32,000 nucleotides of DNA, taken from contig NZ_CP010904.1 in assembly GCF_001017655.1 (NCBI RefSeq), positions 780,001-812,000 of the forward strand, given 5' to 3'. The position numbers and the translations under genes were made by a program. This DNA is from Kiritimatiella glycovorans. GTDB taxonomy: Bacteria > Verrucomicrobiota > Kiritimatiellia > Kiritimatiellales > Kiritimatiellaceae. Every line of letters begins with the position of its first letter. Position 1 is the stretch's first letter. This document shows, piece by piece, positions 8,340 through 25,093 of this stretch. The notes under the pieces are model-generated. The model had not been told where the DNA came from and searched no databases. It saw only the letters and a list, made by a program, of their open reading frames with translations.

Positions 8340-9465
8340 GACTGGCCTCCAAAACCTGCCACAATTGGTGCCGTATCATTTTTGTTTCGGCACTCAAATC
8401 TACCGTAGCAAACCGAATTTCATGTCCTTGGATCGAAACTGATTCATTAAGCATGCTACCAATCGAAGGGTGTAGTAAAATTCCAGTGGCTTTGTCCGCG
8501 AGAGGATCTCCCAGCCCTTCCTGAGACCTCAAATAAGTATAAATCTGGTATATATATCCACTGCGCAACGTTTCATCCCTGTACCACCCTTTGGTTACAA
8601 TCGAATTAAATTTGGTATCAATGATGACCCGCCTACCTGAAATTTCATGGTTCAAGGTAATGTCAGTACGCATTGAGGGGAAAATCTTGTCGATGCCAGA
8701 ACTTTTCTGTTCTACGGCCCATCCGATAGATTTTCCAGCTTCGATACGCCACCCCTGACCGGATAAAGTAACATCATAAAAACCGGCAATTCCTTTTTCA
8801 TAGAGTTTCCGAATCCAAGTAATTTCACGGTCTGGTAACGATAAATATTTTGTTCCGGCAGATTCGGTTGGTAATGCCAGGTTAAACGCAAGGTGAGCTG
8901 CAGCAACCATTTTCCGGTCGATTGCATCGTGCCTTCCAAAACGGTCTATCGAAACCTCTGCGTGTCCCGGTTTTTCTCCGACCACCCCCATACGTCTTAA
9001 ACTGTTCGCAATAGACCTACACCTGTGCCCCAGAGATTGGCGTTTCACCAACTTTGAAATTTCTTCTAATGCTGACCGCACGAAGCGATTGCGAGGCGTA
9101 TCAACGGTCAACTCATCAAAGCGGCAAAACACCTTACCTTTATCAAGAAGCCTATGGTGTTCAGTCTTCAGTAAATCTATTCGGCCACGAACACGATTCA
9201 GAGTTGTCTCGCGTGTCTGGTATCCAAAGCTTAAGTTTCGCTTGATTCGCTGTTCAACCTGTGTGGATAAAATTTCTGCAACCAAGTCGGGTATGTCATC
9301 AGGATTATCTTCAACAGCAACCTGTGAAACTTCATCCAGCTGACGAAAAAGGTCAGATGCATAGAGCATAAGCAGCCAAAGATTCCGGACAGGAATTCTT
9401 CCTATGTAACCAGACTCTTTGAGAGCGGTATTTGGCTTCGGCAATGTGGCTGCAACAGTGCTCAT
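8329..9465 (-). CDS. mcrC: McrC, nuclease subunit of a McrBC-type modification-dependent restriction system
   Basis: The N-terminal block IPVRNLWLLMLYASDLF is McrC-like. There is a PD-(D/E)xK-like segment RRVIIDTKFN. It lies 13 nt downstream of the reconstructed mcrB stop. Confidence 0.85.
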   Translation of the reverse strand: MSTVAATLPKPNTALKESGYIGRIPVRNLWLLMLYASDLFRQLDEVSQVAVEDNPDDIPDLVAEILSTQVEQRIKRNLSFGYQTRETTLNRVRGRIDLLKTEHHRLLDKGKVFCRFDELTVDTPRNRFVRSALEEISKLVKRQSLGHRCRSIANSLRRMGVVGEKPGHAEVSIDRFGRHDAIDRKMVAAAHLAFNLALPTESAGTKYLSLPDREITWIRKLYEKGIAGFYDVTLSGQGWRIEAGKSIGWAVEQKSSGIDKIFPSMRTDITLNHEISGRRVIIDTKFNSIVTKGWYRDETLRSGYIYQIYTYLRSQEGLGDPLADKATGILLHPSIGSMLNESVSIQGHEIRFATVDLSAETKMIRHQLWQVLEASHED

Positions 9466-9564
9466 TTTTTAGAAACCCTCAAAAAAGTCGTTCTCTTGCC
9501 TTCTGGGCTTTATCAAGAGAATCGAACCAGTACTCATCCAAGAGAGGTCCAATTTCTGTATCTA

Positions 9565-11673
9565 CTACTTGTCGGAACCATTCCCGCGCATCCTTGATAG
9601 GAATACCAACGGAGGCGTGACATAACTGTGCCCAATGCTGAACTGTTCGCCCAAGCTGGAATCAGATGTAATCTCTGTATTTAGAGACAATAATTTGCTT
9701 TCAATGTCATCAAGTATGTCTGTGGCTATTCCACATTGAGTTGCTACCCAGTCTTTCCACGTGTTTCCAAGTGCTGGTTTCAAATCGATAAATGCAAACC
9801 TTCTCCGCAGTGCTAAGTCGACAAGAGCAAGCGACCTGTCAGCAATATTCATTGTTCCAATCACATAAAGGTTATCTGGAATAAACACTCGCTCATCATC
9901 TTCACGACGGTATGAAAGCTCTAACGCCTCGTTTGGAGTTCGCTTGTCGACCTCCCACAAAGTCAGCATCTCACCAAATATCTGTGCAGGATTACCTCGA
10001 TTGATTTCTTCGATTACAATGACGTGCCTTGTACTGGGTTCATTTTCGGCGGCCCTGATCATTTCGACAAATGGGCCATCGACTAAAGTCAATTTGCCAT
10101 CACCAGATGGACGCCAACCCCGTACAAAATCTTCGTATGAAAGATTGGGATGAAACTGAACTGCTCGAACCTTGCTATCATTCTTTTGCCCGATAAGAGC
10201 AAGCGCCAATCTCTTTGCAAGCCAAGTTTTCCCTGTCCCGGGAGGGCCTTGCAGAATGAGATTTTTCTTTGTTCGGAGCCGCTCCAGAATCCTTTCAAGC
10301 TTCACTCGTTCGATAAAACAACCGTCCGAAATAATATTATCGACTGAATACGGTTCAATTGGAGCAATGGTAACTTCTTCTTCTGGCTCGCTACCCGGCT
10401 CGTCACTTTGAACATCTGTATCAGTGGCATTGGGGTGTGCCGATGTTCCGCCATCCTTGAAAAGCCAAGCAGCAAGGGAAAGCTCTGGAAAGGAGTGAAC
10501 CGGATAAGCCTCTTCCTGAAACCGTGTTTTTAATGTATCCAGTACCGCTAAATAATCGTTTGTATTACAGCGACCTATGGGGCCATTAAGCCCGATTATG
10601 ATATTCAGTATCTTGCTGATATACCTTTGAGACTGCCCATCAAGAGTCGGGAAATTCCATGGACGAATCCAGTACAACCCCATTGTCAAATTCCAGCCGA
10701 CACCGAATCTCTCGGTTGCACTATCATAGGCTGAAATGAAACCAGCTCTGACATCAGAATCGTCAGAATCTGAAAAGGTGATTGCCCGGGCAAATATCTC
10801 CCATAGCGCATCGATGTCGTCGGACTTTCTTTTGTTATCAAATCCAAAGAACCAAGAGTTCTGGTTGTTGAGTATGGGAATTCCTTCAAATGAGTCCGGC
10901 ACAACTTCTTCAACACCAAGAAAAGTTGCCAATTCAGTAGCAATATTTTTCCTGTTCACATCGGTAATGCCCCGATTGAATATCCCCATAGCTGTAAATG
11001 GACAGATATCCTTCAGAGGGCCTGTTGAGCCATCTTGAAACTGGTCCTGCAGATTGGATAAGCCTTCGACTTTTGATGCAATTGAATGTATGCCTTTTAT
11101 GAGCTCGTCTCGCTTATCCCTGTATAAGAGAAGCTTGTCTGCGATGGCTTCATAAAAACGGGTCCAGAGAAAGCGTTTTTTATCTACAGAGGTGTCTCCA
11201 AAACGCTCACGCCAATATGGTGCATTCCTGAACCGGCTGATATCCTGAGGTTTTTCTTCGAATGTAAAACCGATTAAGGCATCCGTAGTCCAGTCCCCGG
11301 GCAAAACGCGCCATACGGTGCTTCGATTTGTATAGAAGTACCATTCTCTTGGCGGGTCGAAAGGGGTCCATTCAACATCCAAGGTCCGACCGTCACCATG
11401 ATTCTTTTTTACAACTCCGATAGCCTTGATGCCCATGACAGAAACGCTTTGCCCACGATTGTCGAATGAAAGGTCTCGCTTTCGAGTATAAGAGGATATG
11501 ATCGCAATTCGGTCACCGGTCTGGATAGATTTCACTTGGTCAAGATACTTGTCTTGGTATCCATTTTCCCAGATCCCGTCATTGAGAAATCTGCTTGTTT
11601 GATCATCAGAGCCGTAAGTAGCTCCAACAAACCAACATGCTCTTGATCCGGCTCCTTCTGGTTTATCGGTCAT
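9565..11673 (-). CDS. mcrB: McrB-like AAA+ GTPase with a long N-terminal reader-like region; 3' end frameshifted
   Basis: Walker A LILQGPPGTGKTW, VIVIEEINRGNPAQIFGEMLTL, NLYVIGTMNIADRSLALVDLALRRRFAF and IGHSY are present. The conserved C-terminus (VGIPIKDAREWFRQVVDTEIGPLLDEYWFDSLDKAQKARERLF*) sits in another frame and ends at 9479. Confidence 0.9.
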   Translation of the reverse strand: MTDKPEGAGSRACWFVGATYGSDDQTSRFLNDGIWENGYQDKYLDQVKSIQTGDRIAIISSYTRKRDLSFDNRGQSVSVMGIKAIGVVKKNHGDGRTLDVEWTPFDPPREWYFYTNRSTVWRVLPGDWTTDALIGFTFEEKPQDISRFRNAPYWRERFGDTSVDKKRFLWTRFYEAIADKLLLYRDKRDELIKGIHSIASKVEGLSNLQDQFQDGSTGPLKDICPFTAMGIFNRGITDVNRKNIATELATFLGVEEVVPDSFEGIPILNNQNSWFFGFDNKRKSDDIDALWEIFARAITFSDSDDSDVRAGFISAYDSATERFGVGWNLTMGLYWIRPWNFPTLDGQSQRYISKILNIIIGLNGPIGRCNTNDYLAVLDTLKTRFQEEAYPVHSFPELSLAAWLFKDGGTSAHPNATDTDVQSDEPGSEPEEEVTIAPIEPYSVDNIISDGCFIERVKLERILERLRTKKNLILQGPPGTGKTWLAKRLALALIGQKNDSKVRAVQFHPNLSYEDFVRGWRPSGDGKLTLVDGPFVEMIRAAENEPSTRHVIVIEEINRGNPAQIFGEMLTLWEVDKRTPNEALELSYRREDDERVFIPDNLYVIGTMNIADRSLALVDLALRRRFAFIDLKPALGNTWKDWVATQCGIATDILDDIESKLLSLNTEITSDSSLGEQFSIGHSYVTPPLVFLSRMRGNGSDK

Positions 11674-11724: not shown

Positions 11725-11903
11725 TCGTCAACGACAACTACATGGCCCCGTCGGCGACAACTACACTTCCCCATGTTGACGGGGCTGGTGGGCCCCGGGT
11801 TTCCGGGGTTTGAGGGCGATGGGCCGATAGGCCCGAGCCTTCCCCCTCCCACCCCGCAGGGGCACCCCCCATGGGGGGTGCGCGATTCTCACAATTGCGA
11901 TTT

Positions 11904-12665
11904 TCATCGTTTTCGATTCCGTTCGCCCGCCTTCCGGGCGCGGTAACTTTCGCCGTTGAGTTCCAGGATAGTGGAATGATGCACCACCCGATCAATGGCC
12001 GCCGCAGTAGTCATCGGGTCCTTGAAGATCTTGTCCCACTCACTGAAGACCAAGTTGGATGAGATCATCAGGCTGCGCCGCTCGTATCTCTCGGACAGGA
12101 AGGTGAACAACACCTCCATTTCCTCACGGCTCTGCTGCACGTAACCGATGTCATCGAGGATGACCACCTCGAAGCGGTCGAGCTTCTTCAGCAGCGCTTC
12201 GATCGCCAAGTCGCGCTTGGCGGTGAGTAGCTTCTGCACCAGGTGGAACGCCGTGGTAAACAACACCGTCGTGCCGTGTCGCAGCACCAGTTCGCGCCCG
12301 ATCGCGGTCAGCAGATGCGTCTTGCCGCGTCCGGGTAAGCCGAACGCCAGGACGTTCTCGGCCCGTTCGACGAAACCGCCGTCCACCAGCGCCGGGATCT
12401 GACGCTGCACCTTGGTCGGAAGCAGCTTCAGGTTCAGCGTGTCCAGCGACTTGCCGTCGGGCAGGCCGGAGCGTTTCAGCAGCCGCTGCGTGCGCCGTTC
12501 GCCCCGCGCATGCAGTTCGCTCTCCATCACCGCGGCCAGGTAGCGCTCGTACGTCCACTGTTCCTGCGTGGCCTCCGCAGCCAGTCGCTCGTATTCGTTC
12601 AACACGTCCGGCAACCGGAGGGCACGCAATGTCATGGCCAGAGAGGCGGGCGTGGTCATGCGCAC
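11904..12665 (-). CDS. istB: IS21-family helper ATPase IstB
   Basis: Walker A GLPGRGKTHL, Walker B VVILDDIGY, and typical IstB length (253 aa). It overlaps the istA stop. Confidence 0.9.
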   Translation of the reverse strand: MRMTTPASLAMTLRALRLPDVLNEYERLAAEATQEQWTYERYLAAVMESELHARGERRTQRLLKRSGLPDGKSLDTLNLKLLPTKVQRQIPALVDGGFVERAENVLAFGLPGRGKTHLLTAIGRELVLRHGTTVLFTTAFHLVQKLLTAKRDLAIEALLKKLDRFEVVILDDIGYVQQSREEMEVLFTFLSERYERRSLMISSNLVFSEWDKIFKDPMTTAAAIDRVVHHSTILELNGESYRARKAGERNRKR

Positions 12666-14149
12666 ACCTCCTCCGGCGCCAGCAGTTCGTCATAGGCGGC
12701 CAGATCCACCGGCAACGGCGCATGCTCCGACAACGTCGGCATCGGACGCGGACACGCCGAAAGCACCACGTCCAGGCGCGGGATCTCCCCGCGGTCGCGC
12801 AAGCCGCACAGTGCCGCTTCCACCTCACATTCCATCGTGGTGGCCGCGTGCTTGAGGATCTGCAGGTATTCCCGTTCCGCAGTCCGATCGTTGACCGCCG
12901 CGCACAGTGTCTCGTACGCCCACTGGAACGCGGAGGACGGAAACAGGTCAGCACGGAACCGGTAGTTCCGGAACGCCCCGGGCTTGCGCACCAATGAACC
13001 GATCACATGGCGATAGTTGATGTGGTGCGCGTGTTCATCCCGCAGCCATGGCGCAGTGAGCTGGCGCACGCCCCCGTAGAACACCTCGATGTGTTCCGCG
13101 TAGCGATGCACCGTCACCGTGTACCCGATCAGCCGGCTGGGTACCGAGTAGATCCGGCGCTTCACGTTGATAGTGCCCCAACTGCGTACAACGCACCGAT
13201 ACTCCGTGTATTCCGGCAGCCGGTCCACGTCGAGCGCCCGCATGTGTTTGAACTCTTCGGCCAGGCGGACGCGCCGCGTCTCGTTCACCCGCTGAAGCAC
13301 GCCATGAAGGAACTGCTCATACGCCGCCCGGCTGGCGAAGTCCCGCGACCCGCGCAACAACAGGTGTTGCTCGATCCGACGCTTCAGGGCGCCGTTCAGC
13401 GACTCCACATCCCCGTTCTCATGGGGACTGTCCACTTGGATCAGACGGGGAACCATCTCGAAGTGATCCATCAGCTCCAGGTAGGCGCGGTTGTACGCCC
13501 GCGGTTCTCCGCTGGCCTCCGCCGGCCGGTGGGTCGCTGCGCTCGAATGATCCATCCAGTGCTCCGCCGGCACACGGCCCAGCCGCGTCAGCGCGTTCTG
13601 AATCCCCGTACGCAGCGCCACCAGGCTTTCGCTATGGCAGATGCTGGCCCATTCCCAGTTCGAGTAGGTCAGCACGTTGTGACACAACTGGTGGTCGAAC
13701 GGTTCCCCGGCGATCGTGATCCCCAGCCGGTCCATGTGCGTGAAGTCTGTGGACATCCGCACGCCCGGCCGGTGCTCCTGCGCGAAGTACACCTCCTGCT
13801 CGGGCCCCGAAAGCGCTCGCCATTCACGTACCCGCCGCTGAAACGTCCGCAGTTGACCCTCCTGATACTTACCCGCCCGCTCCCGGCACAGCCACTCGAA
13901 CACCGTCTTGGCCTCCAGCTCCGGGCAGCCCTCGAACATCAGTCGGCACTCTTCCCAGTCCTCCGCGAACGGGTCCTCCCGGGTACGCCACCTGCGCTCA
14001 ACCGGCATCTCTGAGGGCAGTTTCCCGCACCTCAGGTACTTCTGCGCCGTCTTACGGTCCAGATCGGCCCGCAACGCAGCCTTGGACACGTTCCCTGTCC
14101 TTTCGTATTCTTCCATCAGCTTCCTCACTTTCCGGTCCGGGGTGACCAT
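12656..14149 (-). CDS. istA: IS21-family transposase IstA
   Basis: 497 aa with an N-terminal HTH region. The DDE-type core has typical IS21 blocks (STDFTH..., ...HENGDVESLNG...). Gene order is istA-istB. Confidence 0.9.
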   Translation of the reverse strand: MVTPDRKVRKLMEEYERTGNVSKAALRADLDRKTAQKYLRCGKLPSEMPVERRWRTREDPFAEDWEECRLMFEGCPELEAKTVFEWLCRERAGKYQEGQLRTFQRRVREWRALSGPEQEVYFAQEHRPGVRMSTDFTHMDRLGITIAGEPFDHQLCHNVLTYSNWEWASICHSESLVALRTGIQNALTRLGRVPAEHWMDHSSAATHRPAEASGEPRAYNRAYLELMDHFEMVPRLIQVDSPHENGDVESLNGALKRRIEQHLLLRGSRDFASRAAYEQFLHGVLQRVNETRRVRLAEEFKHMRALDVDRLPEYTEYRCVVRSWGTINVKRRIYSVPSRLIGYTVTVHRYAEHIEVFYGGVRQLTAPWLRDEHAHHINYRHVIGSLVRKPGAFRNYRFRADLFPSSAFQWAYETLCAAVNDRTAEREYLQILKHAATTMECEVEAALCGLRDRGEIPRLDVVLSACPRPMPTLSEHAPLPVDLAAYDELLAPEEVCA

Positions 14150-14206
14150 CGGCCCTCCTTTCTTTCCAAAAAGAGAGCCTCCAGCACCCCCGGTTAGTGG
14201 GGAAGT

Positions 14207-14677
14207 CTAATTGTCGTCACTGGGGAAGTGTAATTGTCGCTGCGCAATCGGCAGTTCCTCCAGCTCGAAAAGGTCGTGTGACATGCGGCGGACACCTATG
14301 TTGTATTCCATCAGAAGTGTGACCAGCTGTTCACCATTCATGAGGCCCACGGGCGTTTTGTCCGGTTGATTGGCCTCCTTGATGGTTCCGGTGCTGAAGT
14401 CGCTAGTGGTAATGATCAGTCCCTGTTCATGCGCACCAAGGCTGCCGCGAACCTGTTGAACGGTCGGGCTCTGGATATTGCCTTTCCAGCGTTTGGCCTG
14501 AACAGCCATCTTTATGCGGACCACATCGCTGATCAGCAACGTGCCCCGGACATCGATGCCGCCATCGCCGCCGTACTTGGTCACCTCGATGCTTTCAAAG
14601 CCCATCTCCGCCAGCAGTTGACCAACAAGCTCCTCGAATTGTGCCGGGCTCAGATCGACTAAGCTCACCGGCGGCAA
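14207..14677 (-). CDS. Mrr-cat (restriction endonuclease, PD-(D/E)xK) domain protein, 3' end replaced by IS21 sequence
   Basis: LSPAQFEELVGQLLAEMGF...GGDGGIDVRG...AVQAKRW...VQQVRGSL...GLIITTSDFS is the Mrr_cat pattern. The last 11 codons (QRQLHFPSDDN*) are IS-derived. The annotated start is TTG inside attC-5, so the true start is uncertain. Confidence 0.75.
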   Translation of the reverse strand: MPPVSLVDLSPAQFEELVGQLLAEMGFESIEVTKYGGDGGIDVRGTLLISDVVRIKMAVQAKRWKGNIQSPTVQQVRGSLGAHEQGLIITTSDFSTGTIKEANQPDKTPVGLMNGEQLVTLLMEYNIGVRRMSHDLFELEELPIAQRQLHFPSDDN

Positions 14678-14721
14678 TGGAGCGCAGCGGAATTGCCGTC
14701 CGGTGCAGCGCCTTGTTATGT
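14653..14721 (-). other. attC-5 (attC of the Type III R-M cassette)
   Basis: The minus strand reads ACATAAC-AAGGC-GCT(G)CACCGG(A)CGGCAAT-13 nt loop-ATTGCCGCCGGTGAGC-TTA-GTCGATC. R'' ACATAAC overlaps the res stop codon and is the exact complement of GTTATGT at the cassette 5' end (19655-19661). Two extrahelical bases lie on the R''/L'' arm. The R' box is non-canonical (GTC rather than GTT), so the 3' limit is uncertain. Confidence 0.6.
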
Positions 14722-17400
14722 TTCTTTGTATTTTGTAAAGCCTGTCAGAACATCACTGAACGATTTCGGCGCATACTTCTCGAACCCTTCATCATCTACA
14801 AAGATGAAGTCATACACGACTTCCTGCTGCGCTCGATTCACATCGTCGCACCACTGCCTCAGCCGTTCCATTTTGGGCGGCACGTCCAGATCCTCCTGCC
14901 CTTTGGTCTCGACGATCACCACCCGGCCATCCGAAACCCGGACGATGAAGTCAGGATAGTAGTTCGAGATGTCGCCATCCGCATTCACGTAATCCAGCTT
15001 GAAGTGAACCGCCAGATAGTTCTTGGCATAGGAAACCACATCGGGGCAGTTCTCCAAAAAGTTGGCAAACTCCAGCTCAAAGTGGCTGTCGCCAATCACC
15101 CGGTTGAAGACAGACTTCTTGGGAATCATGTAGCCCTGATCCTTCACCACGAAGGGCCGCGTCTTGCGCAGCTTGATCGTATCGCGAATCTCCGCATCAC
15201 CCTTGTACCGCACCGTCAGCTCGTTGATCGCCTGCTTGAAGGTCTCGATGACCGTCTTGGTGGCGGCCAACTCGGAGAGATTCCGCAGCGTGTTCGGTGA
15301 CTCCAGATCGACCGCCTTACCGAACAGGCCGTCACCGACAAATCCCTTCACCTTGCCATAGAGCACATCGTAACCGCTCACCAGCCGCAGTTCCTTCATG
15401 ACTGTTTGGGCGAAATACCCGATCACGCTTCGGTAGTCCGCGATCCCCGCACTATCCAGCACCGTGGTGTGCGTGACCTCTCCCGTGGTGATGTCTTTGA
15501 AAACAATTTCGCGCTGCTCTTCCTCGCTGAACTCCTGATACGCCACCGTCTGAAAGGTGAAACGCCCCGCGTCCAAGTCCGCCAGGTTCTTGTATTCCCG
15601 GTAAACCCGTGGCGTCAGCACCGGGATTTCGATGTCCAGTGCGTCAATGTCCTTGTGGGTGTTCTCGTTGTCCACCTCTACGATAAGGGGAGTCTTCGGC
15701 TTGGTGCCTTCGCCCATCGCCTTGCGCTCCAGTTCGACACCCTCGGCCTGAATCGACTCCACAAAATCCATGAAGGCATCCGTGCCCACCACGCTGACAT
15801 ATTCCTCCGTGTTGCCCGGATACATCTTGCGCAGCCCGCGCCCCAGCGTCTGCTCGGGCAGGATGTTGCTCTTGGCCGAGTAGGCCCGCAGCCCGACAAT
15901 CGTCGTCACGTTGCGCACATCCCAGCCTTCCTTGAGCATCAGCACCGAGACGATTACCTTGTAGGGGCTCCCATTGGAATCGATCTCATTGGACTGCTTG
16001 CGCAGCAGCTCCAACTCTTCCTTCTTCTTCCCGGAAGCAGCCTCAGAGATTTCCCCGTTGTTCTTGGTGTGAATGGTCAGCACCCCGCCAGCCAGATCGG
16101 GATAACGATTCTCCAGATACTCCGCCACTTCATCGCAGTTACGCGTGTCGTCCGTCATCACGAACAGAATCGCCTTCTTGCCCATCTTCTGGTGCTCGTC
16201 GTAGGCCTTGCGCCACTCGATCACCCCCAGGTCCAGATAATCCGCATACTTCTCGGTGAACTTCGCGCTCTGCTTCTCCGAGAGCTTTGCCCGGCTCGGC
16301 GCATCCGGCAGCACCGGGTGCTTGACTACATTCTGCGAAATCGCCTCCACCAGCGGATAATCCGACACCGTCTGGACAAAAATAGCCCCGTTGTTGTGCT
16401 TGGGCGTCGCCGTCACATCCACTTGCAGGCTCAACGCGCCACCCTTCTGCAACAGCCGGTTGTGGATGTCCTCAATCGACTGAAACCACGCCAGCTTCGA
16501 GTCGTGAATGTGGTGCGCCTCGTCGTTGAGCACCATCAGCTCGTCAATGTCGCGCACGATCATCCCCAGATCCACTTTCGAGTCCGTCGTTGCGCCCGTC
16601 GGTCGCTTGCCGAGGAAGTAGTCCATCGTGTTCTCATCCTCGGGCGAGGGCATGATCTCCTCGCCCGAATAAACCCGGTGAATATTGGTCAGGAAAATGT
16701 TCCCCGTCGCCCGCGTCACGTTCACCTCGTCCTGCTTGTGCAGGGTGAGTTGGAAATCGTCGCGCCAGTTGTGCCCGTCGTAGCCATTGTCCGGCAGCAC
16801 CGGATCCTCGAAGAAAATCCGCAGCCCCTGAAAGTCGTGATAAATCCGGTCCAGCACGATGATGTTCGGGGCGATCACCAGAAAATTGCGCGCCAGCTCC
16901 GAATCCGGCTCATAGAGCCTGTGGTAAAAGCTCCACGCCAGGGCAAGGCTCATCACCTTGGTCTTGCCCGAGCCCGTCGCCATCTTGATGACAAAGCGCC
17001 GCCACGTCTCGTCAAACATCCCCGCCGATACTGCGCCGCTGCTGTCAAAGCGCATCAGGTCATACTTGTCCTTCGCGCCCACCACATCATGCAGGTAGAT
17101 GATCGTCTCCATCGCCTCCCGCTGGGCGAAGTAATACTCGAAGCTACCGATGATCGCGTCCTTCCCCGGCAGCAGGTGCGGCTCCTTGAACCACCAGGTG
17201 AGCAGACTCTTGCTCGTGTCGCTCGCGCCCACGTAGCCGCCGTCACGGAACGCCTTCACATTGCGGCGCAGTTGCGCCACCAGCGGCGGCATCAGCTTGT
17301 CCATCGTCGTGTCGCGCAAGGCCTCGTCTGCCGGGAACCAGCGCACCTCGGGATCGAGGATCGCGTGCGGGGAGTCGGGAAAATCAGGATGCAGCGCCAT
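14716..17400 (-). CDS. res: Type III restriction enzyme, Res subunit (SF2 helicase-nuclease)
   Basis: Helicase motif I MATGSGKTKVM, motif II LNDEAHHI, and later SF2 motifs are present, with a C-terminal nuclease-like region. The start overlaps the mod stop (TAATG). Confidence 0.85.
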   Translation of the reverse strand: MALHPDFPDSPHAILDPEVRWFPADEALRDTTMDKLMPPLVAQLRRNVKAFRDGGYVGASDTSKSLLTWWFKEPHLLPGKDAIIGSFEYYFAQREAMETIIYLHDVVGAKDKYDLMRFDSSGAVSAGMFDETWRRFVIKMATGSGKTKVMSLALAWSFYHRLYEPDSELARNFLVIAPNIIVLDRIYHDFQGLRIFFEDPVLPDNGYDGHNWRDDFQLTLHKQDEVNVTRATGNIFLTNIHRVYSGEEIMPSPEDENTMDYFLGKRPTGATTDSKVDLGMIVRDIDELMVLNDEAHHIHDSKLAWFQSIEDIHNRLLQKGGALSLQVDVTATPKHNNGAIFVQTVSDYPLVEAISQNVVKHPVLPDAPSRAKLSEKQSAKFTEKYADYLDLGVIEWRKAYDEHQKMGKKAILFVMTDDTRNCDEVAEYLENRYPDLAGGVLTIHTKNNGEISEAASGKKKEELELLRKQSNEIDSNGSPYKVIVSVLMLKEGWDVRNVTTIVGLRAYSAKSNILPEQTLGRGLRKMYPGNTEEYVSVVGTDAFMDFVESIQAEGVELERKAMGEGTKPKTPLIVEVDNENTHKDIDALDIEIPVLTPRVYREYKNLADLDAGRFTFQTVAYQEFSEEEQREIVFKDITTGEVTHTTVLDSAGIADYRSVIGYFAQTVMKELRLVSGYDVLYGKVKGFVGDGLFGKAVDLESPNTLRNLSELAATKTVIETFKQAINELTVRYKGDAEIRDTIKLRKTRPFVVKDQGYMIPKKSVFNRVIGDSHFELEFANFLENCPDVVSYAKNYLAVHFKLDYVNADGDISNYYPDFIVRVSDGRVVIVETKGQEDLDVPPKMERLRQWCDDVNRAQQEVVYDFIFVDDEGFEKYAPKSFSDVLTGFTKYKET

Positions 17401-19607
17401 TACTTGCCCCCTCCCACGTTAATTTCCACAATCGTCATCGTGTCGTTGCCGAAGATGTCCACCACTTTCACCGCGATCTTGCGCCGCCCCGGCGTGACCT
17501 CATGCGCCACGCTGGTCAACTCCAGCGAGCGATCCTTCTTGGTGCGGAAGCTCTGCCACTCGTTCTCGAAAATGTAGTCGCCGGTCCACTCCTCGCGGGT
17601 CTCACCGCTTTCCAGGTCCTGGATGCGAATGATCTCCCGCTTGCTCTCGAAATCGAAATCCACGCTCCAGTAATCGATCCAGTCGGTCCAATGGTCGGTC
17701 AGGGTCTCCCGCTGCATCACGCCCTTCTTGTCCTTGCTCAGCTTCACGATCTGGCCTTTCTCCACCACGATCTTGCTGCCCGCTCGCTTGGTCTTGCCCA
17801 GCGCCTCCTCCGCCTGGGCGATGCTGTCCTGCGAGTAGAAGACCGAAAAATCCGTCAGCTCCACTGCCACCGTCGCGGGCTGGCCTTTCTTGCCGGCCTT
17901 CACATGGGGCTTGACCTCGATGAAGCTCACGTCGTGGAAGACCACCTGGTTCTTTTCCACCGCCCGCTTGTCGAAAACCTCAGCCGGAATGTATTTCGGG
18001 GCGATATCGATGCCCTTGGCCCGCGCCTCATCCAGCACATTGGGGAACAGCCCCATCTCGAACTCGAAGCCGAGGATGTCCACCTTGGTGATGTGCTTCT
18101 TGCGGCACTCCAGAATGATCTCCTCCACGAACAGCCGCGTCACCGGCAGGTTCACCGGCCCGATCGCCACCAACCGCCCGGCCCGCTTGCCATGGAAACT
18201 CTCGAACTGCGCCACCGGCTCCGCCCGGTAGGCCCGCAGGATCAATTCGAGAAACGCCGCCTCTTTCTGCGCCAACTGCTGCGCCTGCTCTTCCTCGCGC
18301 AGGTTCGGGTTGACCCCCACGAAATGCTGCCGCTCGTATTTGCCGAGGTTGAGGATTTCAAAGGCGCGGTAGTCCTGCCCCTCCGCCTTGCGCTGCCGCT
18401 GCACCCCGATCATCCGCTTGCGGGTGGTGTGGATGGCGAACTTGCTCAGATCACTTCCTATCCACCTTCTCTGAGGCGCAAAATAATAGTGAAGTTTTTC
18501 CTTCCCATTTGCTTGTTTGACTCTCTTTACCCTCAACCCTTGGGCGACAGCTATTGTCGTTCCTGATCCACAAAAGAAATCCGCGATCAAGTCGTCGGGA
18601 TTGGTGCTTGCGTCTATAATTCGCTGAATCAGCTCAACTGGCTTCTGTGTCGGGTATCCAACTCGCTCAGTTTTATCTGAAGGCATGATCGGCTGAATTG
18701 TCCACCAATCCTCAGGGTGTTTCCCCTTTTCATTCGGCACATAGCCTTCATAGACGGCATTATCTCGATACGACTTGTCATACCTACTGGGGTCAGAGTT
18801 TAAAACATCCTCGGAGTATGGAATCCGAACATCGTCCAAATTAAAGGTGTAAGCGTCACCTTTTGAATAGCGGAATATCGTATCGTGCTTTGGTGCAAAA
18901 TCATTCTTTGGAACACCACCCCCGCGATAACACCAGCGGATTTGGTTTCTCTGGTTACCGCTGCCGAAAATGTCATCCATCACCAATCTAATAAAGCTAT
19001 TCACCCGCCAATCACAATGCACATAAATACTCCCATCCTCGGCGAGCAGGTCCCGCATGAGGATGAGGCGTTCGTAAATCATGGCGATGAAGGAATCCGC
19101 CCCTTTGCCCCAGGTGTCGCGGTAGGCGATTTCTTCGAGGATGTTGGGCTTTTTCGTGAAGGTGTCGCCGCCGATCTCGATATCCATGGAGAAATCCGCG
19201 CCCACGTCGAAGGGCGGGTCGATGTAGATCAGCTTCAGCCCGCCCTGCGCCTCGATCTCCTCGCGCAGCGGCCCGTTTTTCAAAGACGACAGGATCAGCT
19301 TGTTGTCGCCCCAGATCAGCTTGTTCGTCCAGCCCTTGAGCTGCCGCCCCCGCGTATCAACATCAAACAAACTGGTTTGGGTGTATTCGGCTGTATCCGA
19401 TGTCGATTCCGCCCGAGGCTCATCCACCTGCTCGATGGTCTGGAACGGCAGCACCAGATTGCAGACCTCGTTCGTCTTCCCGTTCCAGACCAGCTCCACC
19501 TCCCGCTTATCCTCGAACAGCAGAAAGCGATACTTCTCCGGCAACTCCTTGCCCGCCTCAATGAAGCGGACGATCTCCTGTTTTTCCTGATCAGTCAGTT
19601 TCAGCAT
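17400..19607 (-). CDS. mod: Type III R-M DNA methyltransferase, Mod subunit (beta-class N6A/N4C)
   Basis: Motif IV LIYIDPPFD precedes motif I FFCGSGTT, which is the beta-class order. 735 aa, immediately upstream of res. Confidence 0.85.
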   Translation of the reverse strand: MLKLTDQEKQEIVRFIEAGKELPEKYRFLLFEDKREVELVWNGKTNEVCNLVLPFQTIEQVDEPRAESTSDTAEYTQTSLFDVDTRGRQLKGWTNKLIWGDNKLILSSLKNGPLREEIEAQGGLKLIYIDPPFDVGADFSMDIEIGGDTFTKKPNILEEIAYRDTWGKGADSFIAMIYERLILMRDLLAEDGSIYVHCDWRVNSFIRLVMDDIFGSGNQRNQIRWCYRGGGVPKNDFAPKHDTIFRYSKGDAYTFNLDDVRIPYSEDVLNSDPSRYDKSYRDNAVYEGYVPNEKGKHPEDWWTIQPIMPSDKTERVGYPTQKPVELIQRIIDASTNPDDLIADFFCGSGTTIAVAQGLRVKRVKQANGKEKLHYYFAPQRRWIGSDLSKFAIHTTRKRMIGVQRQRKAEGQDYRAFEILNLGKYERQHFVGVNPNLREEEQAQQLAQKEAAFLELILRAYRAEPVAQFESFHGKRAGRLVAIGPVNLPVTRLFVEEIILECRKKHITKVDILGFEFEMGLFPNVLDEARAKGIDIAPKYIPAEVFDKRAVEKNQVVFHDVSFIEVKPHVKAGKKGQPATVAVELTDFSVFYSQDSIAQAEEALGKTKRAGSKIVVEKGQIVKLSKDKKGVMQRETLTDHWTDWIDYWSVDFDFESKREIIRIQDLESGETREEWTGDYIFENEWQSFRTKKDRSLELTSVAHEVTPGRRKIAVKVVDIFGNDTMTIVEINVGGGK

Positions 19608-19654
19608 TTGCTGTCCTTAGGGATGTTCTGATGCCGCGTAAACAGTGGCTAGAA

Positions 19655-19735
19655 ACATAACGTCGCGAGTCACCGGACATCGGAAGACGCGCTCGGCGCG
19701 GCTTTCGATGGTACGGTGGACTCGTCTTGTTGGCT
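19655..19735 (-). other. attC-4 (attC of the HEPN / T5orf172-CSD cassette)
   Basis: The minus strand reads AGCCAAC-AAGAC-GAGTC(C)ACCG-..CATCG(A)AAG-c-CGCGC-cga-GCGCG-t-CTT(C)CGATG..-CGGTGACTC-GCGAC-GTTATGT. It is 81 bp and forms a nearly continuous hairpin with an extrahelical C on the R''/L'' arm. R'' is the exact complement of GTTGGCT at 22593-22599. Confidence 0.8.
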
Positions 19736-19758
19736 GGTCTCTATTGCCTTCGAAATCT

Positions 19759-21102
19759 GGTTCTTTCTCGAATTTTGTGGATGAAAGCGTGAGACATCGC
19801 CCCAGATCTGCGTAAATGGTTGTGAACGCAATCATATACAGCAGGAGGAAGCGATGTCTCAGAAGTCATTGTTCACAGATTTGCTCGGGATTCAAGGATG
19901 GGGCGTAGTCGCCGGTGGAATTCGTATCGAGGAAGATGGCAGTGTGACGGTTCGAATCGATCGACGCAGTGTTGGTTACAGCTGTGGTCAGTGCGGGGAG
20001 GGGCTGTTGTTCACATACGACACGCAGCCACCGCGACGGATCCGGGACTTCCCGATCTGGGGCCGACAGTGCTACTTGGAAGTCGAGTTCGTCCGTGTGG
20101 ATTGCCCTCGTTGCGGCGTGGTCATCGAGGGCTTGGACTGGGTTGAACGGTATGCTCGCCAGACCGTCCGTTATGAGAAGTACGTGGCAGGCTTGTGCGA
20201 TCTGCTGCCAGTCAGCGATGTGGCCGCCCTGGAGGGCCTGAGTAAAGATGCCGTTTACCGAATGGACAAGAAGTGGCTGCAACGGCGTGATGCCAAGCGA
20301 GAGGAGCGCACGGTGCGATATCTGGGGATCGATGAGATCTCGCTGCGCAAGGGGCACCGCTACGCCACGGTTTTCTATGACTTGGAGCGCAAGGAGGTGA
20401 TCGGCTTGGTAAAGACACGCAAGGAGCGCGCTGTGGGCGGGTTCTTCCGCTGCTTCGGTCGCAAGCGCTGCAAGGCTGTCGAGGCCGTGTGCATGGACCT
20501 CTGGCAGCCCTTCCTGAACAGCGTCCGACGGCACTGCAAGAACGCCGTCGTTGTCTTCGATAAGTTCCATGTCTACAAGTACCTCAGTGATGCCATTGAG
20601 GCCGTACGTCGCCACGAGCAGTCCATATGCTCTGACGAAGAGGGCAAGCTGATCAAGGGCACGCGCTGGCTCTGGCTCAGGGCCTCACGCAACCTGAAGC
20701 GCAAACACAAACAGACTCTCGAACAGATCATGGCAATCAACCGACAATTACAGAAAGCGTACCTGCTCAAGGAGGACTTCGAGGCGTTCTACGCGTGCTC
20801 GACACGCGAAGAGGCCGAAGCCTTCCTGAAGGGGTGGATCAAGCGGTGTAAGCAGAGCCGGCTGGAGCCATTCATCAAGCTCGCCAAGCGCCTGGTCCGG
20901 TGGTCGCACGGCATCTTCTCCTACTTCGAATATCGCATCACCAACGGCGTGGCCGAGGGCATCAACAACAAAATCAAAGTACTCAAACGCAGGAGCTATG
21001 GCTTCCACGATGAGCACTACTTCTTCCTCAAAATACTCAATGCAACTGGAGCCCTACCCAGCTTCGAGCAACTCAGTGACCCACAATTTTAGCGAAAGAA
21101 CC
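19759..21102 (+). mobile_element. ISL3-family insertion sequence, copy 1 (1344 bp), 8-bp TSD CGAAATCT
   Basis: IRs are GGTTCTTTCTCGAATTTTGTGG (left) and GGTTCTTTCGCTAAAATTGTGG (reverse complement of right). CGAAATCT occurs at 19751-19758 and 21103-21110. There is a single 412-aa transposase ORF. Confidence 0.9.
19854..21092 (+). CDS. ISL3-family transposase
   Basis: 412 aa with an N-terminal zinc-finger-like CGQCG...CPRCG and a DDE_Tnp_ISL3-type core. RBS AGGAGGAAG precedes the ATG. Confidence 0.9.
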   Translation: MSQKSLFTDLLGIQGWGVVAGGIRIEEDGSVTVRIDRRSVGYSCGQCGEGLLFTYDTQPPRRIRDFPIWGRQCYLEVEFVRVDCPRCGVVIEGLDWVERYARQTVRYEKYVAGLCDLLPVSDVAALEGLSKDAVYRMDKKWLQRRDAKREERTVRYLGIDEISLRKGHRYATVFYDLERKEVIGLVKTRKERAVGGFFRCFGRKRCKAVEAVCMDLWQPFLNSVRRHCKNAVVVFDKFHVYKYLSDAIEAVRRHEQSICSDEEGKLIKGTRWLWLRASRNLKRKHKQTLEQIMAINRQLQKAYLLKEDFEAFYACSTREEAEAFLKGWIKRCKQSRLEPFIKLAKRLVRWSHGIFSYFEYRITNGVAEGINNKIKVLKRRSYGFHDEHYFFLKILNATGALPSFEQLSDPQF

Positions 21103-22592: not shown

Positions 22593-22652
22593 AGCCAACG
22601 TCACGGCTGAGGCGACGGCGTTTCGCCGGTAGCCTCCGGCCGTTTGTTCGAG
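22593..22652 (-). other. attC-3 (attC of the small secreted-protein cassette)
   Basis: The minus strand reads CTCGAAC-AAA-CGGC(CG)GAGGC-ta-CCGGCG-aaa-CGCCG-tc-GCCTC(A)GCCG-TGAC-GTTGGCT. It is 60 bp. R'' is the exact complement of GTTCGAG at 22990-22996. Confidence 0.7.
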
Positions 22653-22989: not shown

Positions 22990-23048
22990 CTCGAACGTCG
23001 CGGATCAGGCGCGGCTACAAGCCGTCGCCTGCATCCGGCTTGTTGGGC
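22990..23048 (-). other. attC-2 (attC of the methyltransferase cassette)
   Basis: The minus strand reads GCCCAAC-AAGCC-GGAT(G)CAGGCG-a-CGGCT-tgt-AGCCG-CGCCTGATCC-GCGAC-GTTCGAG. It is 59 bp with textbook R''-L''/L'-R' geometry and one extrahelical G. R'' is the exact complement of GTTGGGC at 23852-23858. Confidence 0.85.
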
Positions 23049-23851: not shown

Positions 23852-23931
23852 GCCCAACGCCCACCTTGACCGGCGCAGTGAGGCCGCGTCCGCGCGGCCT
23901 TACTGCGTACGTGTCGAAGGTGTTGTTCGCT
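23852..23931 (-). other. attC-1 (attC of the first, attI-proximal cassette)
   Basis: The minus strand reads AGCGAAC-AACA-CCTT(C)GAC(A)CG-ta-CGCAGT-a-AGGCCGCG-cgga-CGCGGCCT-c-ACTGCG-c-CGGTCAAGG-TGGGC-GTTGGGC. It is 80 bp with two extrahelical bases on the R''/L'' arm. R'' is the exact complement of GTTCGCT at 24927-24933. It overlaps the stop of the 138-aa ORF. Confidence 0.8.
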
Positions 23932-24895: not shown

Positions 24896-24926
24896 CTTCC
24901 TCCGGTGTGATCATGTCATCTGGCAA

Positions 24927-25025
24927 GCGAACAAATTATTAATTCGTTTCTTTATATCTCGCCCTAGGTGTTGCCGATCATGAGTGCCCGATCAGACAAC
25001 TCCACCCGTGGATATACACATAACA
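24927..25025 (-). other. attI region (approximate), with the attI/cassette-1 junction at G|TTCGCT (24933|24932)
   Basis: AT-rich segment (about 35% GC) between intI and the first cassette. On the minus strand there are GTT-type heptamers at GTTATGT (25025-25019), GTTGTCT (25001-24995) and the junction GTTCGCT (24933-24927). The first two may be IntI-binding direct repeats by analogy with attI1 DR1/DR2. Confidence 0.45.
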
Positions 25026-25032
25026 ATTAGCA

Positions 25033-25056
25033 ATTTCAAGAAAAAACTTGAAATTT
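25033..25056. promoter_or_regulatory. Perfect palindrome AATTTCAAG-AAAAAA-CTTGAAATT in the intI/attI intergenic region
   Basis: Read directly from the sequence. On the + strand it is followed by TTTTCTTTAT. It could be a weak AT-rich terminator or an operator. Confidence 0.25.
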
Positions 25057-25093
25057 TTCTTTATGGATATCATATTGTTTTCATAATAAATGT

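What the first reader, a model, noticed from the sequence alone, without database searches (positions are those of the whole stretch)
14653..19661. A complete Type III restriction-modification system packaged as a single about 5 kb integron cassette
The G|TTATGT boundary lies 53 nt upstream of the mod ATG. The matching R'' ACATAAC overlaps the res stop codon, so mod-res is exactly bracketed by cassette boundaries. Typical cassettes are about 0.5-1 kb with one ORF. A two-gene, roughly 5 kb R-M cassette is unusually large and makes a whole defence system IntI-mobilisable. It is the most attI-distal cassette, so on the standard model of insertion at attI it is the oldest. Its downstream R' box reads GTCGATC rather than GTT, which might have fixed it in place.
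Basis: partly seen in the sequence, partly recalled or inferred. Interest (0 to 1): 0.65.

Follow-up and report, generated by a model that had tools for sequence, protein, structure and literature searches.

The report
Five-kilobase restriction-modification integron cassette
A complete, full-size Type III restriction-modification system sits in a bacterial integron as one 5,005-bp gene cassette, far larger than cassettes are thought to be, and its far end was welded by the integrase into a neighbouring restriction gene, which probably locks it in place.

Summary
On the minus strand, mod (19607-17400) and res (17400-14716) lie between G|TTATGT (G at 19661, 53 nt before the mod ATG) and an attC whose R'' ACATAAC (14721-14715) contains the res stop codon.

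This is a real cassette, the fifth and last of an array headed by intI (26463-27767).
- All five cassettes begin with the complement of their own R''.
- The same module occurs elsewhere, and homology starts and stops exactly at these boundaries.
- The same attC type occurs with a canonical GTT behind other genes.
- A home-made attC covariance model ranks attC5 as the best non-training hit in the window.

One correction. The R' box is GATCTGA (14656-14650), not GTCGATC. It is a hybrid, not a mutated box. Homology to an intact mrr gene begins at the crossover G (14656). So attC5 recombined with a GWT secondary site inside mrr, cutting off 111 codons and joining the array to an Mrr-McrBC island.

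The cassette is full-size and 2.5 times the "largest known" size. It lies beyond IntegronFinder's default 4-kb clustering distance. Relatives reach 5.9-6.1 kb with 3-4 genes. Defence cassettes and secondary-site recombination are both known, so this is a new member of a known kind.

The parts
26463..27767 (+). intI, integron integrase (434 aa, with an N-terminal extension of about 119 aa that is typical of its clade)
   Evidence: NCBIfam TIGR02249 integron integrase scores 368.4 bits against a cutoff of 265. Pfam finds Phage_integrase and Phage_int_SAM_4. Relatives at 98, 88, 87 and 85% identity are all 434 aa, including Prosthecochloris sp. GSB1.
25093..26437 (+). ISL3-family insertion sequence, copy 2. 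It lies between attI and intI and ends 25 bp before the intI ATG. The target-site duplication is ATAAATGT.
   Evidence: Identical to copy 1 apart from one base, with an 8-bp direct repeat at the flanks. The transposase matches NF033550.
24926..25092 (-). attI region. The crossover G is at 24932 (AATAATTTG|TTCGCT).
   Evidence: TTCGCT is complementary to the R'' AGCGAAC of attC1. The rest of the attI assignment is inferred.
23852..23931 (-). attC1. Cassette 1 is 24931-23858, 1,074 bp, with two ORFs.
   Evidence: The bottom strand folds with z = -5.25. The covariance models score it 63-65 bits, but it was a training sequence.
22990..23048 (-). attC2. Cassette 2 is 23857-22996, 862 bp, encoding a SAM-methyltransferase.
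   Evidence: Fold z = -3.96. Model R1, not trained on it, gives 17.6 bits, E 0.013.
22593..22652 (-). attC3. Cassette 3 is 22995-22599, 397 bp.
   Evidence: Fold and covariance-model hits, as a training sequence.
19758..21102 (+). ISL3 copy 1, inserted in the 3' end of the T5orf172-CSD gene of cassette 4. The target-site duplication is CGAAATCT.
   Evidence: Removing it restores a 311-aa ORF.
19655..19735 (-). attC4, the end of cassette 4 (22598-19661). Its R' GTTATGT supplies the G|TT junction that opens the mod-res cassette.
   Evidence: Fold z = -5.6, with R-box pairing. Model R1, not trained on it, gives 15.6 bits, E 0.041. Its R'' AGCCAAC is complementary to the cassette 4 start GTTGGCT.
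14656..19660 (-). Cassette 5, the Type III R-M cassette, 5,005 bp. It comprises a 53-nt leader, mod, res and attC5 up to the crossover G.
   Evidence: Boundaries come from comparison with L081/L082, L037, L091, L092 and L085.
17400..19607 (-). mod, the Type III DNA methyltransferase (735 aa)
   Evidence: PADLOC MTase_III 373.6 bits over the full length. Pfam N6_N4_Mtase E 8e-42. DPPF at residue 130 and FCGSG at residue 345.
14716..17400 (-). res, the Type III restriction subunit (894 aa)
   Evidence: Pfam ResIII and PADLOC REase_III. Helicase motifs and a PD-ExK motif are present. Homologues at 84-95% identity are all 887-904 aa.
14650..14721 (-). attC5, with R'' ACATAAC (14721-14715), an L''/L' stem and loop, and a hybrid R' GATCTGA (14656-14650)
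   Evidence: Only the central stem folds. Model R2 gives 19.6 bits, E 0.007. The core is about 95% identical to attCs on plasmids pGSUB1 and pLNU-11 that end in GTT.
14655..14656 (-). Recombination joint between attC5 (ending in G) and mrr (starting AT...)
   Evidence: Three-way comparison. Going into the joint, identity to attC orthologues is 53-57/60; beyond it, 6-12/40. Identity to intact mrr is 9/40 before the joint and 35/41 from the G onward.
14247..14655 (-). 5'-truncated mrr (Mrr_cat nuclease domain only, lacking 111 N-terminal codons including HARE-HTH). The ORF continues at 11724-11670 beyond the IS21.
   Evidence: Pfam Mrr_cat. PADLOC models match only through their C-terminal parts. 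Full-length relatives are 230-267 aa; P0122 is 97% identical and 253 aa. blastn to L085.
11725..14246 (-). IS21-family element (istA 14149-12656, istB 12665-11904) inserted in the 3' end of mrr. The target-site duplication is ATCGGC.
   Evidence: L085 shows the empty site.
8329..11673 (-). mcrB-like gene (11673-9565) and mcrC (9465-8329). The restored mrr stop codon overlaps the mcrB ATG.
   Evidence: Pfam AAA_5 and McrBC. 93.5% DNA identity to L085 over 3.6 kb. ORF restoration.

Best explanation
The mod-res pair is a genuine integron gene cassette of 5,005 bp (19660-14656, minus strand). It is the fifth and last of a chromosomal array headed by intI.

**What it encodes.** It encodes an apparently intact, full-size Type III restriction-modification system. 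By analogy with that family, Mod should methylate one strand of a short asymmetric site. The Res-Mod complex should cut unmethylated foreign DNA in an ATP-dependent way. This activity is inferred, not shown.

**How it moved.** Like any cassette, it was moved as a circle by the integrase. The integrase cuts between G and TT of the folded attC bottom strand. Copies of the same module, some carrying one or two extra genes between mod and res, sit in other genomes with the same two end points.

**What happened to its distal site here.** The attC R' crossover recombined with a GAT (GWT-type secondary, or 'attG') site inside an mrr gene. This most likely deleted whatever lay between them. The result is:
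- a hybrid R' (GATCTGA) that can no longer pair properly with R'' (ACATAAC);
- an mrr gene lacking its first 111 codons;
- a direct fusion of the cassette array to an Mrr-McrBC restriction island.

With a defective R', and with an ISL3 element separating intI from its upstream region and from attI, the cassette is probably no longer excisable at a useful rate.

**Shown versus inferred.** Shown: the boundaries, attC identity, the joint position, gene integrity and occurrence in other contexts. Inferred: that IntI catalysed the joint, the loss of mobility, and the enzymatic activity.
For: **Array context.** intI is above the curated cutoff. Four upstream cassettes have foldable attCs, and every cassette start is complementary to its own R''.

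**attC5 recognition.** A covariance model trained only on attC1-4 and two foreign attCs ranks attC5 as the best non-training hit in the window. The alignment covers the full model, at 14719-14650, 19.6 bits, E about 0.007.

**Left boundary.** Contig L081 begins at GTTATGT. L082 has unrelated sequence up to the G (10/40 identity) and 50/59 identity from the G to the mod ATG.

**Right boundary.** In L081, L091, L092 and L037, identity is 46-57/60 up to the G and 6-12/40 after it. L081, L091 and L092 continue with GTTAGAC, GTTAGAA and GTTGGGC.

**The joint.**
- blastn to an intact mrr-mcrBC locus (L085) starts exactly at 14656, at 92% identity.
- The intact gene reads ...TTGATG|GATCTGAG... at that point.
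- The closest Mrr proteins are 230-267 aa with an N-terminal HARE-HTH domain that the window lacks.
- GAT fits the 5'-GWT-3' consensus, with cleavage after G, reported for IntI1 insertion into genomic sites (bioRxiv 10.1101/2022.09.11.507474).
- L037 has a second, independent G|AT joint on the same attC type.
- Only one base is shared at the joint, so an assembler artefact is unlikely (inference).

**Gene integrity.** Catalytic motifs are present, and the proteins have the same length as homologues outside integrons.
Against: - Nothing here is experimental.
- The curated IntegronFinder attC model could not be run. The home-made model rests on six sequences and gives attC5 only a modest score.
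- The first, three-sequence model did not find attC5 significantly (7.2 bits, E 6.4).
- Most homologous mod-res loci (about 65 of 78) show no attC after res. None of the loci with a clean attC has an intI within 8 kb. Integrons are therefore only one of the vehicles of this module.
- L081 and L082 come from sister samples and count as one context.
- No sigma-70-like promoter was found in or just upstream of the cassette, so expression here is unknown.
- A breakpoint at the crossover G could in principle arise without IntI.
Confidence: 0.8

Rival explanations
1. mod-res is a cassette, but the attC5-mrr joint was made by IntI-independent illegitimate recombination or deletion. For example, a break or replication slippage at the attC hairpin could have happened to land at the crossover G.
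For: Only one base (G) is shared between the two parents at the joint. That is also what non-homologous joining would give. Three insertion sequences in the region show that it is rearrangement-prone.
Against: The break coincides to the base with the canonical G|TT cleavage position, which is one position out of about 70 in the site. The partner site fits GWT. A second attC of the same type in another genome (L037) is also joined at G|AT to unrelated DNA.
Confidence: 0.12
2. attC5 is an ordinary terminal attC whose R' box (GTCGATC) decayed by point mutation, and the Mrr gene downstream is simply the next gene or flanking DNA.
For: GTC differs from GTT by one base, and the downstream ORF has possible TTG/GTG start codons inside the attC.
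Against: Orthologous attCs read ...GAGCTTGGTC|GTT. The GTC therefore belongs to the unpaired spacer and R' starts three bases later. The covariance-model alignment ends at 14650. mrr is truncated by 111 codons, and its homology starts exactly at the R' G.
Confidence: 0.05
3. mod-res is not a cassette. On this view the hairpin after res is a terminator or a generic repeat, and the GTTATGT/ACATAAC pair is a coincidence next to a short integron.
For: The attC5 R box cannot pair. attC4 and attC5 are 4.9 kb apart, which exceeds accepted cassette sizes (PMC4889954).
Against: The start-to-R'' complementarity rule holds 5 out of 5 times. The same 65-nt core occurs as a canonical attC on two plasmids behind other genes, once carrying a group II intron of the kind that targets attC sites (that targeting habit is recalled from memory). 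Module homology ends at both crossover points in independent contexts. The hairpin is not followed by a T-run, and the terminator scan does not list it.
Confidence: 0.03

Closest known systems
Integron cassettes that encode anti-phage defence or restriction systems. These include the 'BRiCs' of mobile integrons (Kieffer et al., bioRxiv 10.1101/2024.07.02.601719) and the defence cassettes of sedentary chromosomal integrons (Darracq et al., bioRxiv 10.1101/2024.07.02.601686). From memory, Type II R-M cassettes in Pseudomonas and Xanthomonas super-integrons also belong here (Vaisvila et al. 2001, listed as reference 24 of PMC12707154).
   Same: It has the same architecture: G|TT start, promoterless leader, ORFs, and an attC whose R'' complements the cassette start. 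It sits in an array next to intI, and its cargo is a defence system.
   Different: Those surveys report that integron defence systems are small, never exceed two components, are shorter than their non-integron homologues, and are mainly Type II or IV restriction systems (summarised in PMC12409362). Here the cargo is a full-size Type III system of 5.0 kb. Relatives carry 3-4 genes in 5.9-6.1 kb. No Type III R-M cassette was found in the searchable literature.
IntI-mediated recombination of attC with secondary genomic sites (attG, consensus 5'-GWT-3'). Source: Loot et al., bioRxiv 10.1101/2022.09.11.507474.
   Same: The joint lies at the G of R', the partner is GAT, and the result is gene disruption with probable deletion of genomic DNA. 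That paper describes both outcomes experimentally.
   Different: This is a natural relic in an environmental genome, involving the terminal attC of a resident array rather than an incoming cassette. It fuses an integron to a Type IV restriction island. The integrase belongs to a distant clade with an N-terminal extension, not IntI1.
Type III restriction-modification systems (EcoP1I/EcoP15I type)
   Same: mod precedes and overlaps res. Mod is a beta-class N6_N4 methyltransferase. Res carries SF2 helicase motifs plus a C-terminal PD-ExK nuclease. The proteins match Type III profiles.
   Different: The sequence is far from the enterobacterial enzymes. NCBIfam PRK15483 gives only 19.6 bits, and the best NCBIfam hit, the BPTD_3080 family, gives 267.6 bits against a cutoff of 800. 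Recognition site and cleavage behaviour are unknown.
CALIN elements or single attC sites lacking an integrase (Cury et al. 2016, PMC4889954)
   Same: The related copies L013, L054 and L038 carry attCs with no intI within the 8-kb flanks.
   Different: The window copy is in a complete integron with intI.

Membership tests
Integron gene cassette | Lies in an array downstream of attI/intI, in the same orientation as the other cassettes | tested here: met
   intI is at 26463-27767 (+), scoring above the TIGR02249 cutoff. The five cassettes all run on the minus strand, away from intI.
Integron gene cassette | Starts immediately after the G of the preceding attC R' (G|TTRRRY) | tested here: met
   attC4 ends ...CGCGAC G|TTATGT at 19661/19660. 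TTATGT departs from RRRY at one position.
Integron gene cassette | Ends with an attC: R'', unpaired spacer, an imperfect L''/L' stem with extrahelical bases on the bottom strand, a variable loop and R' | tested here: inconclusive
   R'', the spacer, the stem with two bulged bases and the loop are all present. The home-made covariance model gives 19.6 bits, E 0.007. R' is GAT instead of GTT and cannot pair with R''. Orthologous copies of the same attC have GTT. IntegronFinder's model was not available.
Integron gene cassette | The first bases of the cassette are complementary to its own R''. This is the signature of a circular intermediate. | tested here: met
   GTTATGT pairs with ACATAAC. The rule holds for all five cassettes, and for L013 (GTTATTT with AAATAAC).
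Integron gene cassette | Mobility as a unit: the same module in different contexts, with homology ending at the two crossover points | tested here: met
   For the window against L081/L082 and L037. L013 and L054 carry related modules bounded by GTTATTT and a canonical attC.
Integron gene cassette | Excision and integration by the integron integrase | not testable with these tools
   This needs PCR for the attC4 x attC5 circle or a recombination assay.
Type III restriction-modification system | Two subunits, with mod upstream of res in one operon | tested here: met
   The ORFs are 19607-17400 and 17400-14716, overlapping at 17400.
Type III restriction-modification system | Mod is a beta-class amino-methyltransferase, with the DPPY/F motif before the FxGxG motif | tested here: met
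   DPPF at residue 130 and FCGSG at residue 345. PADLOC MTase_III matches over the full length at 373.6 bits.
Type III restriction-modification system | Res is an SF2 helicase-like ATPase with a C-terminal PD-(D/E)xK nuclease | tested here: met
   GSGKT, DEAH, TAT, Q..GRGLR and PD...ETK motifs are present. It matches Pfam ResIII and RE_endonuc and PADLOC REase_III.
Type III restriction-modification system | Hemimethylation of an asymmetric site, with ATP-dependent cleavage that needs two inversely oriented sites | not testable with these tools
   This needs methylome sequencing and biochemistry.
attC x secondary-site (attG) recombination product | The break falls exactly between G and the next base of R' | tested here: met
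   attC homology ends at the G at 14656, and mrr homology begins there.
attC x secondary-site (attG) recombination product | The partner site fits 5'-GWT-3' | tested here: met
   The intact mrr reads ATG|GATCTG.
attC x secondary-site (attG) recombination product | Catalysis by IntI | not testable with these tools
   Inferred from the position of the joint only.

The most novel reading that the evidence does not exclude
Integrons in environmental bacteria routinely move full-size, multi-gene defence systems of 5-6 kb (2-4 genes). [quoted passage not shown] On this reading, the current picture of integron defence cargo as 'streamlined, at most two components' is partly an ascertainment artefact. 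Cassette transfer would then be one of the drivers of the cross-phylum spread of this very conserved Type III R-M family.
Probability: 0.3. Interest if true: 0.65.

Novelty: new member of a known kind. Interest (0 to 1): 0.5.

Why it matters
Integron biology currently holds three things:
- cassettes are small, with the largest known about 2 kb (PMC4889954);
- long cassettes recombine poorly, and a 4-kb cassette was not recovered experimentally;
- defence systems must be miniaturised to ride in integrons.

This locus and its relatives are natural counter-examples. A normal-size Type III R-M system of 5.0 kb, or up to 6.1 kb with 3-4 genes in relatives, is bounded by exact cassette end points in several genomes.

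It also exposes a blind spot in detection. attC4 and attC5 are 4,934 bp apart, so by the rules described, IntegronFinder's default 4-kb clustering and local search would stop at attC4.

Finally, the attC5-mrr joint is a clean natural example of an integrase reaction with a secondary site. That reaction remodelled a chromosome and stitched an integron to a restriction island.

None of this changes the known mechanism of integrons. It extends the size and content range, and it gives a concrete test case.

Tried and rejected
- **Rfam.** A scan of the window at gathering thresholds found nothing. No family in the searched library matched these sites.
- **MAFFT alignments of attCs.** Sites of different length were misaligned at one end or the other (A2, A3, A4) and could not be used directly. 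I used a three-sequence alignment, with attC1 shortened in its loop (A5), to seed model R1. I then rebuilt R2 from R1's own alignment of six sites.
- **Model R1.** It did not detect attC5 significantly. With default filters it also lost attC2 and attC4.
- **Energy-based attC scan.** A crude scan found attC1-4 but gave many false positives in the GC-rich flanks. I used it only to argue that there is no further attC to the left of attC5, together.
- **Is Mrr-McrBC a sixth cassette?** Rejected. There is no attC, mrr is truncated, and the region is collinear with a non-integron island (L085).
- **intI near the related loci.** tblastn found none, apart from a fragment in L069 and a weak hit in L028.
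- **Source genome.** An exact look-up of the window's Res gave no record, so the source genome could not be identified.
- **Promoter scan.** No sigma-70-like promoter was found for mod-res.
- **Plasmid search.** It found only one distant mod-res relative, on an Aminobacter plasmid at 76% identity.

Full report
**1. Layout of the window**

The window holds a complete integron.
- The ORF at 26463-27767 (+) is an integron integrase. It scores 368.4 bits on TIGR02249 against a cutoff of 265.
- Its 434-aa length, with an N-terminal extension of about 119 aa, is shared by its closest relatives at 98-85% identity, one from Prosthecochloris.
- All cassette genes run leftwards on the minus strand.

Three insertion sequences have landed in the region.
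- Two ISL3 copies, identical apart from one base, each have an 8-bp target duplication. One lies between attI and intI (25093-26437). The other lies in the last codons of a cassette gene (19758-21102).
- One IS21 element (11725-14246) has a 6-bp duplication. An uninterrupted relative shows its empty site.

Composition differs by block: the outer flanks are about 65% GC, the cassettes 52-60%, and the genes to the left of the array (4.9-11.7 kb) 45-50%.

**2. Checking the observation**

- G|TTATGT has its G at 19661, 53 nt before the mod ATG (19607).
- ACATAAC is at 14721-14715 and contains the res stop codon (TAA, 14718-14716).
- mod (735 aa) and res (894 aa) overlap at 17400.

The proteins look intact.
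- Mod has DPPF followed by FCGSG.
- Res has GSGKT, DEAH, TAT, Q..GRGLR and a C-terminal PD...ETK motif.
- Mod matches PADLOC MTase_III over its whole length (373.6 bits). Res matches REase_III and Pfam ResIII.

**3. Is it a cassette?**

Four lines of evidence say yes.

*The array rule.* I read four further attC sites upstream: attC1 23931-23852, attC2 23048-22990, attC3 22652-22593 and attC4 19735-19655. In all five cassettes, the six bases after the preceding G are the complement of the cassette's own R''. That is what a circular intermediate cut at G|TT predicts.

| Cassette | Start | R'' |
|---|---|---|
| C1 | TTCGCT | AGCGAAC |
| C2 | TTGGGC | GCCCAAC |
| C3 | TTCGAG | CTCGAAC |
| C4 | TTGGCT | AGCCAAC |
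| C5 | TTATGT | ACATAAC |

*Folding.* attC1-4 fold as long imperfect hairpins on the bottom strand. R-box pairing appears in the minimum-energy fold of attC1, attC3 and attC4. z-scores run from -2.3 to -5.6. attC5 folds only its central stem, which has two bulged bases on the bottom strand.

*Covariance model.* No curated attC model was available, so I built one.
- R1, from three sites, found the two untrained window sites attC2 and attC4 as its best non-training hits (17.6 and 15.6 bits). It did not find attC5 significantly (7.2 bits).
- R2 was rebuilt from attC1-4 plus two foreign sites, and excluded attC5 and its orthologues. It scored attC5 at 19.6 bits (E about 0.007 in 82 kb). This was a full-length match at 14719-14650 and the best non-training hit in the window. 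The next window hit scored 12.2 bits.
- This is modest support from a small model.

*Comparison with other loci, the strongest evidence.*
- The Res protein has relatives of at least 78% identity in 463 species-level genomes across many phyla.
- Most of the 78 loci examined have no attC after res. A subset does.
- In metagenomic contigs L081 and L082 (Res 93% identical), the module ends in the same attC with a canonical R' (...GAGCTTGGTC|GTTAGAC). L081 begins at GTTATGT. L082 carries unrelated sequence up to that G.
- Identity to the window is 10/40 before the left G and 50/59 after it. It is 53/60 up to the right G and 8/40 beyond it.
- L013 and L054, two loci of one Desulfobacterales genome, carry related modules bounded by GTTATTT and canonical attCs (R'' AAATAAC or GAATAAC; R' GTTGGCA or GTTGGCC).
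- L038 has a truncated copy of the attC followed by three further attC sites.
- The 65-nt core of attC5 also occurs at about 95% identity on two plasmids, behind other genes and ending in GTT. These are Geoalkalibacter pGSUB1 (after a DNA methyltransferase, R' GTTGGGC) and Citrobacter freundii pLNU-11 (R' GTTAGAA, with a group II intron in its R'' side).

**4. What is wrong with attC5**

That register is off by three bases.
- The alignment with attC4, the orthologous sites and the model alignment all show that GTC is the end of the unpaired spacer.
- R' is GATCTGA (14656-14650).

The downstream ORF is a fragment of mrr.
- It matches Mrr_cat, but only the C-terminal parts of PADLOC restriction models.
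- Its closest relatives are 230-267 aa with an N-terminal HARE-HTH domain. P0122 is 97% identical and 253 aa.
- The contig that encodes P0122 (L085) carries hsdR, a UvrD-like gene, mrr, DUF8425, mcrB and mcrC.
- blastn aligns L085 5870-6282 to window 14656-14244 (92%), and L085 6274-9851 to window 11724-8142 (93.5%).

Side by side:

| Sequence | Reads |
|---|---|
| intact mrr (L085) | ...CAGTTGATG\|GATCTGAGTCC |
| window | ...GAGCTTAGTC\|GATCTGAGCCC |
| canonical attC (L081) | ...GAGCTTGGTC\|GTTAGACC |

So the window is attC up to the G, and mrr from the AT onward. The joint sits at the exact position where integron integrases exchange strands.

The partner site, GAT, fits the 5'-GWT-3' consensus measured for IntI1 insertion into genomic 'attG' sites. 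The same work reports that such events can disrupt genes and delete genomic DNA. A second genome (L037, Chlorobaculum) has the same attC type joined at G|AT to unrelated DNA.

I therefore read the joint as a relic of attC5 x secondary-site recombination, most simply an intramolecular deletion. It removed the first 111 codons of mrr and whatever lay between. This fused the array to an Mrr-McrBC island.

When IS21 is removed in silico, the mrr stop codon overlaps the mcrB start. This fits an mrr-mcrBC operon rather than another cassette. No further attC is detectable to the left.

**5. Consequences for mobility**

These are inferences.
- The hybrid R' pairs with R'' at only 4 of 7 positions. There is a mismatch inside the conserved triplet next to the cleavage point (my own pairing of ACATAAC against GATCTGA, read), and the R boxes stay unpaired in the predicted fold.
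- Excision of mod-res needs attC4 x attC5, so the cassette is probably locked or nearly so.
- Genome-inserted cassettes with such hybrid sites were excised at low frequency in some clones in the attG study. Locking is therefore not absolute.
- Independently, ISL3 copy 2 lies 25 bp upstream of the intI ATG and separates intI from attI.
- No sigma-70-like promoter was found in the cassette leader.
- Whether the system is expressed or active here is unknown.
- "Oldest cassette" cannot be inferred, because the distal end of the array is a rearrangement joint.

**6. Comparison with what is known**

Known background:
- R-M genes in integron cassettes have been known since the super-integron era (from memory; the paper is listed as reference 24).
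- Defence cassettes are now well documented.
- Secondary-site recombination is also known.

What differs is the scale and class of the cargo.
- The IntegronFinder paper gives about 2 kb as the largest known cassette. [quoted passage not shown]
- attC4 and attC5 are 4,934 bp apart. By my reading of that description, the default run would end the array at attC4.
- Darracq et al. report that integron defence systems never exceed two components, are shorter than their homologues elsewhere, and that long cassettes recombine poorly.
- A 4-kb cassette (Sucellos carrying an IS) was the only one not recovered in a capture experiment.
- Here Res and Mod have the same length as relatives outside integrons, so this system is not streamlined.
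- Related cassettes carry MNT-HepT toxin-antitoxin and/or KilA-N genes between mod and res. They reach 5,862-6,067 bp.
- I found no report of a Type III R-M cassette in the searchable literature.

**7. Verdict**

It is a new and unusually large member of a known kind, not a new mechanism.

Limits of the evidence:
- there is no experiment;
- the curated attC model was not run;
- there are few independent contexts, and L081 and L082 count as one;
- none of the clean relatives has an intI within 8 kb;
- the source organism is unidentified.

Noticed in passing
window 14656-14720; L092 (NZ_CP010312.1 186431-186494); L091 (NZ_KX863568.1 24452-24512): The core of attC5 recurs at about 95% identity on a Geoalkalibacter subterraneus plasmid, behind an unrelated 336-aa DNA methyltransferase. 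It also recurs on a Citrobacter freundii IncP plasmid from a wetland, where a group II intron sits in its R'' side. One attC type is thus attached to different cargo in distant hosts.
   Followed up: partly
L001-L080; P0001-P0120: The Res subunit is extraordinarily conserved: at least 78% amino-acid identity in 463 species-level genomes. Hosts include Chlorobiota, Thermodesulfobacteriota, Chloroflexota, Planctomycetota, Cyanobacteria, Pseudomonadota, Nitrospirota and Acidobacteria. Mod is more variable, at 61-82%. This points to very recent and wide horizontal spread by several vehicles, since most loci have no attC.
   Followed up: partly
L081-L083, L086 (MNT + HepT); L084, L086-L088, L090 (KilA-N); L001, L013 (other genes): In relatives, the mod-res junction is a hot spot for extra genes, namely an MNT-HepT toxin-antitoxin pair and/or a KilA-N protein. 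In the window, mod and res overlap directly.
   Followed up: no
window 25093-26437 and 19758-21102: Two ISL3 copies, identical apart from one base, each have an 8-bp target duplication. One ends 25 bp upstream of the intI start codon and separates intI from attI and the array, so it may have silenced the integron. The other truncates the last codons of the T5orf172-CSD gene.
   Followed up: partly
window 21103-22598 (cassette 4, after removing ISL3): This is a two-gene cassette: a 192-aa ORF with no family match, plus a T5orf172 (GIY-YIG-like) protein fused to a cold-shock domain. The fusion protein matches PADLOC candidates PDC-S57 and CSD_V, so this may be another defence cassette.
   Followed up: no
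window 25018-25024 (minus strand): A second GTTATGT heptamer lies inside the attI region, about 90 nt upstream of the attI crossover G (24932). It is identical to the junction that opens the mod-res cassette. It could be an integrase-binding repeat, a relic junction or chance.
   Followed up: no
window 4957-11673: A low-GC (45-50%) run of defence-type genes, all on the minus strand, lies to the left of the array: McrB-like and McrC, DUF6880 (PADLOC PDC-S62) and RhuM (PDC-S05, 503 bits). The 8142-11724 part is 93.5% identical to metagenomic contig L085, where the island also carries a Type I hsdR.
   Followed up: partly
window 26463-26820 (IntI residues 1-119): The integrase has an N-terminal extension of about 119 aa ahead of the TIGR02249 match. 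The extension is conserved in length in its closest relatives, and many environmental IntI homologues are longer still (434-617 aa). Its function is unknown.
   Followed up: no
L001 274-360 and 3400-3484: The closest GTDB relative, a Chlorobium MAG with Res 91% identical, has two attC sites upstream of its mod-res locus (44 and 26 bits with model R2) but none after res. This may be a decayed or differently bounded cassette.
   Followed up: no
window 27773-31988: Phage-type genes, including a tape-measure-like protein of 1,044 aa with PhageMin_Tail, directly flank intI on the right in 64% GC DNA. The integron may abut, or lie inside, a prophage remnant.
   Followed up: no
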